Assembly: GCA_965113315.1 (NCBI GenBank)
Contig: OZ220367.1
Strand: one strand, 5' to 3'
DNA length: 64,000 nucleotides
DNA from: Podarcis vaucheri
Taxonomy: Eukaryota
Shown: positions 46,933-49,900 of the stretch, one piece after another
Layout of the letters: every line of letters begins with the position of its first letter
Position numbering within the stretch: the stretch's first letter is position 1
Program-made: the position numbers

Positions 46933-49900
46933 GAAGTCAAATGTTTTATACGGAGGTTTTTTTTAAAAAATATTTTATTAAAACCTTGTCATAGTACAAT
47001 AAGATGAAACAAATCTAAATGAAATGAAATGAAAACACAGTGAAAGAAGAAACAGCGAAGGGAAGAAAAGAAAAGGGAAAAAAGAGGAAAAATAAAAAGG
47101 ACTTCTGATTTTCAGTCTGTTGGTTACATAAATGAAATTGTTCCAAATACTCACTCTAGAATGATGCCCAACAGATCTACTTTCTGTTAGGCAATATTTG
47201 CCCAGTCTTCCAACCCAAATGACTCACATTAATTCATTTTTCTTTTTACACAAAAAAATCCAAAAGGGGGTTCTCTAATTATCGTTATTAATACATTTCA
47301 ACAGTAGTTTTTTCTGTAATCAAAATTAATTAATTTGTATACTGCCCTATACCTGTAGTTTTCAGCGTGGTTGCAACATAAAATCACAATATAAAAACAC
47401 AAAACACATAATATCAAGTCCACTGTGAGTGTATATTAAAATAAGATCCCATAATTCTATTATTATTTATTCATTAATTTGAATCCAGTGCCTTATCTTC
47501 AATTCCCATTTCCTGTTGCATTTGTTGTACTTTTCCGTCCTGTTTTTTTAAATCCCTTCCATTTATGTTTCTTCCATTTCCTATCCCCTAAAAAGTGCCA
47601 GAGGTTTGATAGCTTTTTCCTCTGAATTCACTCCAAGTCGTGCACAGAGTCCTTTTTCACTCAACTCTATCTCTGCCAGATCAGTATATCTCTTCCGCTC
47701 TCCATCCATGGTTTCTTTCCACCTCTGCAACACCACAACTCTCATTTCTCTAAGCCAGTGTTTTTCAACCGCTCTTACGCGGCACACTAGTGTGCCGCGA
47801 GATGTTGCCTGGTGTGCCGTGGGAGGGAGGCGGGCGAGTTGGGCGGCGAGAGGCGGGGCAGCGGTGGCGAGGAGAGGCCGCCCAGCGCGGGGCTCTCGCC
47901 GTCTGGCTGCCTGCGTGGCGCTGACGTCACGGGGCTGTAACGTGCCCCACATAGCGAGCTCCCTCCCACATCCCATCGCCGCTCTGCCGCACGCTAGCTC
48001 GTTTCGGCTGGCCTACTGGGCTGTCGCAGGCGGAAGGCCTGCGCATGCGCGAGGTTTTCGCGCCTTCGGGATTCCCTTCACGCCTTCCTCCTCCCGGGGC
48101 CTTGAGAGCGCGGGAAGCGGCAGCGCGAGACCGGCCGTTGAGCCTGGCAGGTATTGCGCTTGCCAAGGCAGTCATGCAGATCATCCTTTATTATCCTTTT
48201 TAAAAGTTGCATGTGGGATTGTGGCATTGTGCAAAATGCATGAATAAATCTTTCATGGAAATGGGCAGTGACACAAATCCGTAGTCATCCAGGAGGTTCT
48301 GTAAAGCAGGCAGCAGTTGGGCTTGTTTGGGCGGACAGTCTCTTCCCATACTATGAAAGAAAATGGATAGTCAGCACAAGGAAAGCCAAGGCCAGGTGAA
48401 ATAAGGATCACCTGGGAAATACAGAGAACTGGACTATCAGGAAATTATTGAAATCCTAATTACAAAGAGTTTGAACAGTGTCCCACATAACCTTTGTGGA
48501 GCTTTAAATAGATTTTATTTTATTTATTGCAATGCATTGCATTGCAAACCACTCTGTGGGGATTTCTTTATCCCGAAAGGCAGCCTAGATACTTTAATAA
48601 ATAATAAATCAATTCATTATAAATGAAATTGAATTTAGATTCACAGTATAAGCACAATTTAAATCAGACTCATGCCAGCTACATTACTGCCCTGGAGATG
48701 TTTGGGTTGAAAGGCAGAATACTAATTCAATTAACAACGCCAACAACCACCTTTTTACAGGCATATGTCAAGGGCTCAGCACCTCCTTTTAAGTATTTGA
48801 ATCCGTTACGTTTACATGGATATTTCCCCAGCTTCTAATAGCATTTGCTCTCTTCTCTCATAGGATTTTCATACGTTTCTGGTGCTCTGTTATAGATTAT
48901 TTTTAGAAACTGCTTGTATTTTTTTAAAAAAGCACAATATATACAACAATGTACAATTTAATAACACATAAATTAAACTAAGTCATTATTATATTGTAAA
49001 TTAATCTGAAATAATCTTAATTCCTCCAGCATCATGTCTCTGTATATTAAATTTAGGATCAATGTTGTATTCTAGATTTAAAATGATGATTCAGTACATA
49101 AATACAGAGGCAAAATTCAGAGCTTACTAGCAACCACCTTTTTAGGTTTTCTGTAAACTGGGGAAGACATCCATGTTGGAAGTTCAATTCCTTGCTTAGC
49201 CATGAAGCTCAATGGAAATTGCCTTGCTCTTGCCCTCTCTAATCCAGTGTTTTTCAACCGCTGTTCCGCGGCACACTAGGCCCTCGGGGACCTCGTGGCT
49301 TCCGCTTTTGCGTGTGCTGCCGTCACTCTTCCTGCCATTCCCATGTATAATTCGTGCCCGTAATACAGGCAGTAAAAACTGTTCTGTATAACGACTACCC
49401 CGCCTCTTCCCCCCCCATCTAAACCCATTTTTTTTTCCTTTGCAGAAATGAGCCGTTGCATTGAGCTCACACAGTATGCATGTTTTTGCCTGGCTGTGAT
49501 TGGTCCGGACTCCAGCCTGGACCTATCACAGTAGGACATCATCTTCCGACTTCCTTCCCGCCCGAGCACAGAGACCAGGACTCAGCGGGAGTCGGCACTG
49601 CAGAGAGGCCGGATACTGCAGTGATGGACAAGTTTTTGAAAAGAAAAGAACTGGACTCTGAACAAAATTTGGAGCCAGATGAGAGCCCAAGAATGAGTGG
49701 GGATGAAAAGAAAGCAAAGATGGTTAGCTCAAGCAAATTCTCGGGCACAAGGCAATATAGCGAAAGCTATATTTCATTTGGATTTACTTTCACGGGAGAT
49801 GCAAACCAACCAACTCCACTGTGCATGGTGTGTGGTGAAAAGCTAGCTAACAACAGTGCTATGGTCCCAAGCAAACTTAAACGTCATCTCCAAACGAAAC

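What the first reader, a model, noticed from the sequence alone, without database searches (positions are those of the whole stretch)
47820..49626. Promoter-exon-intron cassette that could splice out the inner TIR to express the transposase
Seen: directly inside the outer left end is a CpG-rich block with a perfect CRE (TGACGTCA, 47922-47929), an ETS-like GGCGGAAG (48029-48036) and an NRF1-type TGCGCATGCGC (48040-48050). A donor-like CAG|GTATTG follows at 48150/48151, where the sequence turns AT-rich. About 1.3 kb later come a branch-like CTAAAC, a T-rich tract and TGCAG| at 49445, 178 nt before the Kozak ATG of the transposase (49624). A short uORF starts at 49448. Inference: the extra DNA may act as a housekeeping-type promoter and non-coding exon, possibly captured from a host gene, whose intron removes the dead inner TIR.
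Basis: partly seen in the sequence, partly recalled or inferred. Interest (0 to 1): 0.7.

Follow-up and report, generated by a model that had tools for sequence, protein, structure and literature searches.

The report
Composite hAT transposon carrying a CpG island
A lizard cut-and-paste transposon carries 1.5 kb of extra DNA at its left end, including a promoter-like CpG island that could drive its transposase gene, but no transcript data could be checked.

Summary
The surrounding structure is real. A hAT/Buster-type element (47756-51736, 3981 bp) has a perfect 8-bp target duplication (CTCTAAGC). It contains an intact 627-codon transposase gene and a second, 35-nt copy of its left end at 49245. 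The 1489 bp between the two left ends is extra. Without it the unit is 2492 bp, the published size of Buster elements.

The extra DNA has three parts: a roughly 70-nt transposon end, a true CpG island, and 1.1 kb of CpG-depleted AT-rich DNA. The island has GC 0.72 and CpG o/e 0.97. Its perfect CRE and NRF1-type sites are each rare in shuffles.

The acceptor at 49445 is the best-scoring of 4420 AG sites on this strand. The donor at 48150 is ordinary: 269 of 3216 GT sites score as well. A probable real donor in the window scores about the same.

One other public contig (P0121) carries the same left-end/CpG-island junction, so this is not an assembly artefact.

No RNA data or other genomic copies could be searched. 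The architecture is supported. Promoter activity and the 48150-to-49446 splice remain untested.

The parts
47748..47755 (.). Left copy of the 8-bp target-site duplication, CTCTAAGC
   Evidence: Identical 8/8 to 51737-51744. TA at positions 4-5 fits the Buster pattern nnnTAnnn (PMC3499496, passage).
47756..47825 (+). Outer left end. It comprises the 15-nt TIR CAGTGTTTTTCAACC, a 22-nt perfect palindrome at 47778-47799, and two GTGTGCC motifs at 47790 and 47812.
   Evidence: GTGTGCCGCGAGAT (47790) matches GTGTGCCTCGAGAT at the right end (51672) in the same orientation. After nt 35 this end therefore looks like a right-end subterminal region, i.e. like a miniature deletion derivative.
47820..48150 (+). 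CpG island with CRE (47922-47929), ETS-like word (48029-48036) and NRF1-type palindrome (48040-48050). It is the candidate promoter plus non-coding first exon.
   Evidence: GC 0.72, CpG o/e 0.97. Shuffle test. About 240 nt of it (47890-48173) is matched by exact amino-acid runs of the independent contig-derived ORF P0121.
48148..48156 (+). Candidate splice donor CAG|GTATTG (exon would end at 48150)
   Evidence: 4.6 bits; 269 of 3216 GT sites score as well. The probable UVSSA exon donor CAG|GTACTG in the same window scores 4.9.
48151..49235 (+). AT-rich, CpG-depleted DNA, the putative intron body. It holds competing acceptors at 48760 and 48863, a stronger donor at 48395 and five AATAAA/ATTAAA hexamers.
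   Evidence: No similarity to the rest of the window. No long ORF.
49236..49279 (+). Inner partial copy: 9 nt of the left flank/target duplication (TCTCTAATC) plus the first 35 nt of the left end
   Evidence: 41 of 44 identical to 47747-47790. Homology stops 2 nt past the centre of the palindrome.
49280..49623 (+). 5' untranslated region of the transposase unit. It includes the branch-like CTAAAC (49419-49424), the pyrimidine tract, the acceptor (intron would end at 49445), upstream ATGs at 49448, 49476 and 49480, and a GC/ETS/SP1-like patch at about 49540-49570.
   Evidence: Acceptor is rank 1 of 4420. Upstream ATGs. The 48 codons from 49480 are identical to the N-terminal extension of the Podarcis muralis model P0002. 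No donor of 2 bits or more lies between 49245 and 49445.
49624..51507 (+). Intact transposase ORF, 627 codons plus stop
   Evidence: 97.6% identical to P0001 and 95.4% to P0002. Five private substitutions and one extra residue against 14 relatives.
51507..51512 (+). AATAAA overlapping the stop codon (a second at 51556)
51722..51736 (-). Right TIR (CAGTGTTTCCCAACC on the minus strand), preceded by GTGTGCC motifs at 51672 and 51702
51737..51744 (.). Right copy of the target-site duplication, CTCTAAGC

Best explanation
This is a composite Buster-type hAT transposon. A normal-sized (2492 bp), apparently intact autonomous unit sits at 49245-51736. It is preceded by a 1489-bp add-on that begins with a second, fuller left end at 47756. 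The whole 3981 bp is bracketed by one 8-bp target duplication.

The add-on has three parts:
- about 70 nt of transposon end;
- a roughly 350-nt CpG island with CRE, ETS-like and NRF1-type sites;
- 1.1 kb of old-looking, CpG-depleted DNA.
The last two together look like foreign, probably host-derived, promoter-plus-downstream DNA trapped inside the left end.

I favour an in-place repair accident. In this model a break about 70 nt inside the left end was healed with captured DNA plus a 44-nt, error-containing templated copy of the nearby flank/end junction. Formation from two neighbouring elements that then moved as one unit is the second choice.

Function is inferred, not shown. If the island is unmethylated and fires rightwards, its transcripts would run into the transposon's own very strong acceptor at 49445. 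They could be spliced from 48150 (or from 48395) to 49446. That would remove the inner end stub and give a transposase mRNA with a CpG-island promoter.

Shown: the architecture, the CpG-island properties, the motif positions, the strength of the acceptor, and the existence of the same junction in a second public contig. Inferred: the foreign origin, promoter activity, direction and splice usage.
For: Architecture.
- Exact TIR 15-mers lie at 47756 and 49245. A 2-mismatch inverted copy lies at 51722-51736.
- CTCTAAGC occurs at 47748-47755 and at 51737-51744. The chance of 8/8 identity is 1.5e-5.
- A 44-nt direct repeat is 41/44 identical.
- Four of the window's seven GTGTGCC words lie in the outer left end and the right end.

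The add-on is extra.
- Buster elements are 2.5-3.0 kb with one ORF of 597-677 aa and 14-16-bp TIRs. AnBuster is 2489 bp and TcBuster 2750 bp (PMC12637253, passages).
- By my hand count of the table, 49 of the 60 listed relatives whose longest contig is under 10 kb sit on contigs of 2.1-3.0 kb.

Foreign and promoter-like.
- CpG o/e is 0.97 in the block, 0.23 in the AT-rich part, 0.50 in the ORF and 0.28-0.34 in the flanks.
- CRE appeared in 5 of 5000 shuffles, NRF1 in 15 of 5000, and both together in 0 of 5000.

Splice signals.
- The acceptor is rank 1 of 4420.
- The donor (4.6 bits) has the same form and score as the probable UVSSA exon donor (4.9 bits).
- There is no donor between the inner end and the acceptor. 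The native unit therefore has an acceptor without a partner, as reported for 8 of 9 transposon-derived splice sites (Cosby et al., bioRxiv, passages).

Independent copy.
- P0121 is the only hit in two library-wide searches.
- It carries a left-end-like stretch fused to the island, with exact runs of 17, 11, 29, 12 and 8 residues across 47903-48173.

In-place origin.
- The inner copy includes 9 nt of this locus's own flank.
- It ends at the palindrome centre.

Young copy. The transposase has only 5 private substitutions at conserved columns.
Against: - No transcript, CAGE, methylation or chromatin data were available.
- The donor is not better than chance. 8.7% of all GT sites on both strands score as well, and a stronger one lies at 48395.
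- Strong acceptors at 48760 and 48863 (11.1 and 11.6 bits) and five poly(A) hexamers lie inside the proposed intron.
- Three upstream ATGs follow the acceptor, so the spliced leader would translate poorly unless the in-frame ATG at 49480 is used.
- A GC-rich patch with ETS-like and SP1-like words just upstream of the ATG could be the native promoter.
- The only other CRE and NRF1-type sites in the window sit together inside a 233-nt miniature element at 10450-10682. Such motif pairs can therefore be transposon-borne and need not be host-derived. No homology beyond the motif was found.
- Three mismatches in 44 nt are more than expected for a recent in-place duplication (P = 0.01-0.06 at 1-2% divergence), unless the repair synthesis was error-prone.
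- P0121 diverges completely after 48173. Its end region differs at 4 of 12 residues while the island is nearly identical. I cannot explain this.
Confidence: 0.5

Rival explanations
1. Inert passenger. The extra 1.5 kb is filler DNA trapped during repair or transposition. It is silenced like the rest of the element and plays no part in transposase expression. Expression, if any, comes from the native region just upstream of the ATG or from read-through. The donor-acceptor geometry is fortuitous.
For: The donor is ordinary: 269 of 3216 GT sites score as well. Competing acceptors and poly(A) hexamers lie in the 'intron'. Upstream ATGs follow the acceptor. Canonical Buster elements express without such a cassette (PMC12637253, passages). 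The strong acceptor is a general transposon feature (Cosby et al., bioRxiv, passages).
Against: CpG o/e of 0.97 with intact CRE and NRF1 palindromes argues against long germ-line methylation, although a young insertion would look the same. The island is nearly unchanged in P0121 while the neighbouring DNA is rearranged.
Confidence: 0.35
2. Two-element macrotransposon. A miniature relative (left end only, right end lost) and a full element lay about 1.4 kb apart, in direct orientation, around a CpG-island promoter at an earlier locus. The outer left end and the far right end were then used together, and the unit with the host DNA between them moved here.
For: The composite as a whole has a perfect target duplication. 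The two left ends differ by 2 of 35 nt, more like two copies than one. After nt 35 the outer end resembles a right end, as in deletion derivatives. Macrotransposons are documented for Ac in maize (PMC9910405, passages). TcBuster favours transcription start sites and CpG islands (PMC3499496, section read).
Against: The 8 nt before the inner end (CTCTAATC) match this locus's duplication at 7 of 8 positions, plus one further flank base. That is P about 0.005 if independent, with the central TA fixed. The outer element has no right end. Left ends of 41-64 bp gave very limited activity in AnBuster (PMC12637253, passage).
Confidence: 0.25
3. Domesticated transposase gene. The locus is a host gene of the ZBED5-like kind, with a CpG-island promoter, a non-coding first exon, an intron and a single coding exon, kept by selection next to MAEA.
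For: The ORF is intact. The gene-like layout is there. A second contig appears to share the flank and the island. Database names of relatives are 'zinc finger BED domain-containing protein 5-like' and 'SCAN domain-containing protein 3-like'.
Against: TIRs and target duplication are intact. The protein is 95-98% identical to other lizard copies and has only 5 private changes, as expected of a young mobile copy. Relatives 77-95% identical in frogs, fishes, a snake, a tunicate and a spider point to an active, horizontally moving family.
Confidence: 0.07
4. The island works in the other direction or as a shared regulatory element. It would be a leftward or bidirectional promoter or enhancer acting on the region upstream of MAEA, whose first exon lies 1.7 kb away on the minus strand. 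It would not serve the transposase.
For: CpG-island promoters are commonly bidirectional (general knowledge, recalled). GC skew across the block changes sign and gives no clear direction. The MAEA exon 1 and its island are at 45801-46840.
Against: No minus-strand exon or ORF of note leaves the block. Leftward transcripts would immediately cross the transposon end.
Confidence: 0.1
5. Assembly artefact. The duplicated 44 nt and the extra DNA result from a mis-join of reads from different copies.
For: Repeats are error-prone in assemblies, and an assembly gap lies 2 kb away (45502-45782).
Against: The junction of the left end with the CpG island is seen in an independent public contig (P0121). 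The two 44-nt copies differ at 3 positions. The outer boundaries carry a perfect target duplication.
Confidence: 0.03

Closest known systems
Buster-group hAT transposons (TcBuster, AnBuster, SPIN-type elements)
   Same: 8-bp target duplication with central TA, a 15-nt TIR starting CAG, and a single ORF of 627 aa. The inner unit is 2492 bp, against AnBuster 2489 bp/621 aa and TcBuster 2750 bp/636 aa (PMC12637253). The insertion lies near a CpG island and transcription start (MAEA), as TcBuster prefers (PMC3499496). The host distribution is very wide.
   Different: It carries 1489 bp of additional DNA with a CpG island and a second, truncated left end. No phylogeny with TcBuster or SPIN was made here. 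The window protein does not reach Pfam cut-offs for zf-BED or DUF4371.
HelibatN3 Helitrons of bats, which carry the captured NUBPL promoter, six codons and a splice donor (PMC4778049, passages)
   Same: A DNA transposon carries a promoter, a short first exon and a splice donor that can splice to a downstream acceptor.
   Different: There the carrier is a non-autonomous rolling-circle element, the parent gene is known, there are thousands of copies, and the donor traps host exons. Here the carrier is a cut-and-paste element, the parent is unknown, one other copy is known, and the putative target is the transposon's own transposase exon.
Ac macrotransposons and composite insertions in maize (PMC9910405, passages)
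   Same: hAT ends from separate positions bracket intervening DNA, and the composite carries its own 8-bp duplication.
   Different: No complete second element is present here. The inner end carries a near copy of this locus's own duplication, which suggests formation in place.
Transposon-borne acceptors used in host-transposase fusion genes (Cosby et al., bioRxiv 10.1101/2020.05.07.082677, passages)
   Same: [quoted passage not shown]
   Different: In those cases upstream host exons of a gene harbouring the insertion are spliced on and give a fusion protein. Here the upstream exon would be carried inside the element and would be non-coding. Counting bases, the one ATG in the putative exon would continue in the frame of the short upstream ORF, not the transposase frame.
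Domesticated Buster-derived genes such as ZBED5 (recalled, not tested)
   Same: CpG-island promoter, non-coding leader exon(s) and a single transposase-derived coding exon.
   Different: This copy keeps its TIRs, its target duplication and near identity to mobile copies.

Membership tests
hAT superfamily, Buster group | 8-bp target-site duplication | tested here: met
   CTCTAAGC at 47748-47755 and 51737-51744, 8/8
hAT superfamily, Buster group | Target consensus nnnTAnnn (PMC3499496: TA at 26871 of 27985 TcBuster insertions) | tested here: met
   TA at positions 4-5 of CTCTAAGC, and likewise in the inner CTCTAATC
hAT superfamily, Buster group | Short TIRs of 14-16 bp (PMC12637253) | tested here: met
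   15-nt TIR, 13 of 15 matching between the left and right ends
hAT superfamily, Buster group | Transposase with BED finger, DDE core and hAT C-terminal dimerisation domain | tested here: inconclusive
   The window protein scores zf-BED E 0.016, DUF4371 E 0.12 and zf-C2H2_12 25.7 bits against a cut-off of 27.3, all below cut-off. Dimer_Tnp_hAT passes only in the 58%-identical relative P0035. Relatives carry precomputed PF14291/PF27073/PF27046 and ZBED5-like/SCAND3-like names. Catalytic residues were not mapped. No PDB sequence hit.
hAT superfamily, Buster group | Total length 2.5-3.0 kb with a single ORF | tested here: inconclusive
   The inner unit (2492 bp) fits. The TSD-bounded composite (3981 bp) does not.
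hAT superfamily, Buster group | Phylogenetic grouping with TcBuster/SPIN and not with Ac or Tip | not tested
   No reference transposases were fetched
CpG island (usual criteria: 200 nt or more, GC at least 0.55, observed/expected CpG at least 0.65) | Composition thresholds | tested here: met
   47661-48240 passes in sliding 200-nt windows. The block has GC 0.72 and o/e 0.97.
Active promoter with spliced first exon | Transcription start and use of the exon-intron junction | not testable with these tools
   No RNA, CAGE or chromatin data were available. Only motif and weight-matrix scores were obtained.
Captured host promoter cassette (HelibatN3 type) | Identifiable parent host gene | not testable with these tools
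   No eukaryotic DNA collection was available. A translated probe found only P0121, which itself carries the transposon end.
Captured host promoter cassette (HelibatN3 type) | Amplified together with the element | tested here: inconclusive
   One further contig has the junction (P0121). Its flank seems related to this locus: two collinear exact 4-mers, reached by 12 of 20000 shuffles. It may therefore be the same insertion in a relative and not a second transposed copy.
Ac-type macrotransposon | Two elements, each with its own ends, flanking host DNA | tested here: not met
   No second right end lies in 47791-49244 (up to 3 mismatches)
Ac-type macrotransposon | Target duplication around the composite | tested here: met
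Domesticated transposase gene | Loss of TIRs and target duplication, fixed syntenic orthologues under purifying selection | tested here: not met
   TIRs and duplication are intact. Orthology and selection could not be tested.

The most novel reading that the evidence does not exclude
An autonomous, horizontally spreading Buster transposon has acquired a host-type CpG-island promoter with a 5' exon. That exon splices onto the transposon's own pre-existing acceptor. The promoter capture would therefore serve the transposase itself, giving methylation-resistant housekeeping expression. It could also be the first step towards a new host gene beside MAEA.
Probability: 0.15. Interest if true: 0.7.

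Novelty: new variant of a known kind. Interest (0 to 1): 0.4.

Why it matters
How cut-and-paste transposons secure transcription in a new host is poorly understood. This matters especially for families that jump between phyla. It is also unclear how a transposase gene first gains the promoter and leader exon seen in domesticated genes. A copy caught with an intact transposase, intact ends and a CpG-island promoter plus donor placed upstream of its native acceptor would be a testable intermediate. If the island is silent, the locus is only a well-preserved example of foreign DNA trapped in a hAT end by repair.

Tried and rejected
1. Other copies through translated probes. The minus-strand ORF across the inner end (49199-49522) found nothing. 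The canonical left end of the family therefore could not be read from other copies.
The 82 members of the P0001 cluster and their contigs could not be listed.
3. Homology of the add-on to the rest of the window. Apart from the 44-nt repeat there were only four weak hits, with E of 0.11 or more.
4. Coding content of the add-on. No ORF of note. Rfam gave 0 matches at gathering thresholds in 45000-53000.
5. Continuation of P0121 beyond 48173, and its flank, tested by degenerate back-translation alignment. Scores were no better than shuffled peptides, so the method had no power. The flank relation rests only on two exact 4-mers.
6. Common origin of the CpG block and the CRE/NRF1-bearing miniature element at 10450-10682. 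Only the 12-15-nt motif aligns. 16 of 300 shuffles reach the same-strand score and 92 of 300 the reverse-strand score.
7. Identity of the ORF-like flank interrupted by the element. Pfam gave nothing and the ESM Atlas gave no usable hit.
8. Snap-back synthesis as the origin of the palindrome. Rejected by eye: the sequence after the palindrome is not the reverse complement of the TIR (print-out).
They cannot hold lizard DNA.
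Full report
CONTEXT

The window is squamate-type genomic DNA.
- An exon at 10739-11212 (minus strand) matches UV-stimulated scaffold protein A (E 8e-17).
- Region 46010-46081 (minus strand) matches residues 1-24 of the E3 ligase MAEA (E 2e-8).
- The MAEA CpG island spans 45801-46840, and an assembly gap of 281 N lies at 45502-45782. I left the gap as it is.
- The finding lies about 1.7 kb upstream of the MAEA start.

THE ELEMENT

- The 15-mer CAGTGTTTTTCAACC occurs exactly at 47756 and at 49245. 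It occurs inverted, with two mismatches, at 51722-51736.
- The 8 nt before 47756 and the 8 nt after 51736 are both CTCTAAGC. The chance of this is 1.5e-5.
- TA at positions 4-5 fits the Buster-group target pattern nnnTAnnn. TcBuster showed TA at 26871 of 27985 insertions (PMC3499496, section 7 read).
- The ORF 49624-51507 has 627 codons and is intact.
- The homology search scored 7998 candidates and found 1444 proteins with E of 0.001 or better.
- The closest relatives are a Logan-derived cluster (P0001, 97.6% identical) and a Podarcis muralis model (P0002, 95.4%).
- Relatives named 'zinc finger BED domain-containing protein 5-like' or 'SCAN domain-containing protein 3-like' are 77-95% identical (identities). 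They come from a snake, several frogs, a salamander, teleosts, a tunicate and a spider.
- This spread is the pattern of a horizontally moving family.
- Pfam domains stay below cut-off for the window protein. A relative (P0035) passes the hAT dimerisation model.
- Against 14 relatives, the window copy has 5 private substitutions at conserved columns and one extra residue. It is therefore a young copy, and its intact ORF needs no special explanation.

THE ADD-ON

From the inner end to the right end the unit is 2492 bp.
- Published Buster elements are 2.5-3.0 kb with one ORF of 597-677 aa and 14-16-bp TIRs. AnBuster is 2489 bp (PMC12637253, passages found by term search; its Table S3 was not opened).
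- By my hand count, 49 of the 60 rows whose longest contig is under 10 kb have contigs of 2.1-3.0 kb. This is weak support, because contig ends need not be element ends.
- The 1489 bp at 47756-49244 is therefore extra.

It has three parts.

(a) 47756-47825, a transposon end.
- After the first 35 nt it continues with GTGTGCCGCGAGAT...GTGTGCC.
- This resembles the right-end subterminal region (GTGTGCCTCGAGAT at 51672) in the same orientation. There were 2 matches against 0.56 expected, and 11 of 100 shuffles had 2 or more.
- It forms a perfect 22-nt palindrome at 47778-47799.
- Four of the seven GTGTGCC words in the 64-kb window lie at these two ends.

(b) About 47820-48170, a CpG island.

(c) 48151-49235, AT-rich DNA.
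- Its CpG depletion (o/e 0.23) matches the host flanks (0.28-0.34) more than the element's own ORF (0.50).

Then comes a 44-nt copy of 47747-47790, which is 9 nt of flank plus the first 35 nt of the end.
- It is 41/44 identical.
- It stops 2 nt past the palindrome centre.
- After it the 5' region of the transposase unit begins.

ORIGIN OF THE ADD-ON (INFERENCE)

The inner copy includes a near copy of this locus's own target duplication. With the TA fixed, 5 of the 6 free positions are the same (P about 0.005 if independent). One further flank base also matches.

This favours an event at this locus. In that model a break about 70 nt inside the left end was repaired with captured DNA and a short templated copy of the adjacent junction, which stalled at the hairpin-prone palindrome.

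Against this model, three mismatches in 44 nt are more than a young duplication should show (P 0.01-0.06 at 1-2% divergence). Error-prone repair synthesis would account for them.

The alternative is a macrotransposon made from a miniature relative plus a full element around a CpG island, as described for Ac (PMC9910405, passages).
- It explains the differing ends and the perfect outer duplication.
- It needs the coincidence of the two duplications.
- It lacks a second right end.
- Left ends of 41-64 bp gave very limited activity in AnBuster (PMC12637253, passage). This bears on how well either left end here would work.

THE CASSETTE

All motifs are at the stated coordinates. In 5000 shuffles of the block the CRE appeared 5 times, the NRF1-type decamer 15 times, and both together never. 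The ETS-like and SP1 words are unremarkable. The block therefore looks like a genuine promoter-type island.

Caveat: the only other CRE and NRF1-type words in the window lie 12 nt apart inside a 233-nt miniature element with CAGTG-type inverted ends at 10450-10682. Nothing beyond the motif aligns between that element and the block. Transposon-borne origin of such modules therefore cannot be excluded.

Splice signals were scored with weight matrices whose frequencies I recalled. They are approximate, so I calibrated them inside the window.
- The MAEA exon 1 donor scores 10.1 bits.
- The probable UVSSA exon donor CAG|GTACTG scores 4.9 bits.
- The UVSSA exon acceptor scores 5.4 bits.
- The candidate donor CAG|GTATTG scores 4.6 bits. 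It is viable but ordinary: 269 of 3216 plus-strand GT sites, and 8.7% of 6666 on both strands, score as well.
- A better donor lies at 48395 (7.2 bits).
- The acceptor at 49445 scores 12.7 bits, first of 4420 AG sites.
- No donor of 2 bits or more lies between the inner end and this acceptor.

The native unit thus carries an unpartnered acceptor just upstream of its ORF. The acceptor is therefore probably native, and what the add-on contributes is a promoter and a donor.

Points against efficient use:
- acceptors of 11.1 and 11.6 bits at 48760 and 48863;
- five AATAAA/ATTAAA hexamers between 48243 and 49046;
- upstream ATGs at 49448 (28 codons), 49476 (7 codons) and 49480. The last is in frame and gives a 48-residue extension identical to that of the P. 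muralis model P0002.

A GC-rich patch with ETS-like and SP1-like words at about 49540-49570 could be the native promoter.

I did not build or search a joined exon sequence. By base counting, the single ATG in the putative exon (48045) is open to the donor with one base left over. It would continue in the frame of the short upstream ORF, not that of the transposase.

A SECOND COPY OF THE JUNCTION

I used the spurious plus-strand ORF 47708-48244 as a probe. Two library-wide protein searches each returned a single hit, P0121. It is 165 aa, from one 1201-nt Logan contig, and is unnamed.

Exact residue runs tie it to the window:
- the left end (QCF, RHTS);
- 47890-47904;
- 47903-47953, 17 residues covering the CRE;
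- 47953-47985, 11 residues in another frame;
- 48011-48097, 29 residues covering the ETS-like and NRF1-type sites;
- 48101-48136, 12 residues;
- 48150-48173, 8 residues across the donor.

At the donor, the Gly and Ile codons fix 48150-48151 and 48153-48154 but leave 48152 open. The preceding Ala-to-Val change puts T at the -3 position.

Compared with the window, P0121:
- lacks about 47792-47886;
- differs at 4 of the 12 residues encoded by the end;
- shows nothing collinear after 48173.

Upstream of the end it shares two collinear exact 4-mers with this locus's flank, which 12 of 20000 shuffles reach. It may therefore be the same insertion in a related genome.

This result rules out an assembly artefact for the end/island junction. 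It also shows that the island is kept nearly unchanged where the neighbouring DNA is rearranged. With a single contig, and protein-level resolution only, I do not read this as proof of selection.

COMPARISON WITH KNOWN SYSTEMS

The nearest precedent for a DNA transposon carrying a promoter, a short exon and a donor is HelibatN3, with the captured NUBPL fragment (PMC4778049, passages). There the carrier is a non-autonomous Helitron that traps host exons.

Promoter capture that feeds the element's own transposase through its native acceptor did not turn up in my one full-text search on that theme. The other searches addressed other topics, and none was exhaustive. I therefore rate this as a new variant of known kinds (hAT composite or filler capture; promoter capture by transposons), conditional on function.

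WHAT STAYED UNCHECKED

- Any RNA, CAGE, methylation or chromatin data.
- Any eukaryotic genome DNA.
- The members of the protein clusters (one search was switched off).
- The supplements of the bioRxiv preprint and of PMC12637253.

VERDICT

The architecture (composite element, real CpG island, strong native acceptor) is well supported, at about 0.85. That the add-on is captured foreign DNA is likely, at about 0.7. That it acts as a rightward promoter I put at about 0.35-0.4. That the specific 48150-to-49446 splice is used I put at about 0.2-0.25.

Noticed in passing
window 10450-10682: A 233-nt miniature element with CAGTG-type inverted ends (TACAGTGGTACCTCTGG / CCCGAGGTATGACTGTA). It holds the only other perfect CRE (10558) and NRF1-type GCGCATGCGC (10578) in the window, 12 nt apart, inside the UVSSA gene region. 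Promoter-type motif pairs may be carried by lizard miniature elements.
   Followed up: partly
window 49624-51507 and one search hit list: The transposase has relatives 77-95% identical (identities) in lizards, a snake, frogs, a salamander, teleosts, a tunicate (Styela clava) and a spider (Stegodyphus dumicola). This is the pattern of repeated horizontal transfer. It was not analysed phylogenetically.
   Followed up: partly
window 47584-47754 and 51738-51860, minus strand: The element interrupts an ORF-like sequence. The reading frame on the minus strand runs from the right flank through the target duplication into the left flank. Each piece was searched separately and not joined. Pfam and the ESM Atlas gave nothing.
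   Followed up: partly
window 49480-49623: An upstream ATG in frame with the transposase gives a 48-residue extension with no stop. It is identical in all 48 residues to the N-terminus of the 674-aa Podarcis muralis model P0002, while the rest of the protein is 95% identical.
   Followed up: partly
window 45181-45501, 52178-52518 (inverted), 56103-56454: Three copies of a roughly 300-nt SINE-like repeat, 88-92% alike. The first abuts the assembly gap at 45502-45782.
   Followed up: no
window 45801-46840 and 46010-46081 (minus strand): The MAEA first exon and its CpG island. A (GT)n run at 46887-46930 lies between it and the transposon.
   Followed up: partly
window 63041-63646, plus strand: A 201-aa ORF that looks like the C-terminal part of a LINE reverse transcriptase (recalled resemblance). 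Pfam found no family at E 0.01.
   Followed up: no
window 55453-55936: Two adjacent copies (spacing about 320 nt, 78-81% alike) of a repeat unit (families D4 and D5).
   Followed up: no
P0121 versus window 47756-47791: In the one other contig with the junction, the transposon end differs at 4 of 12 encoded residues while the CpG island is almost identical. At one position (Val) it agrees with the inner copy of the window rather than the outer one. This is unexplained. Exchange between copies is one possibility.
   Followed up: partly
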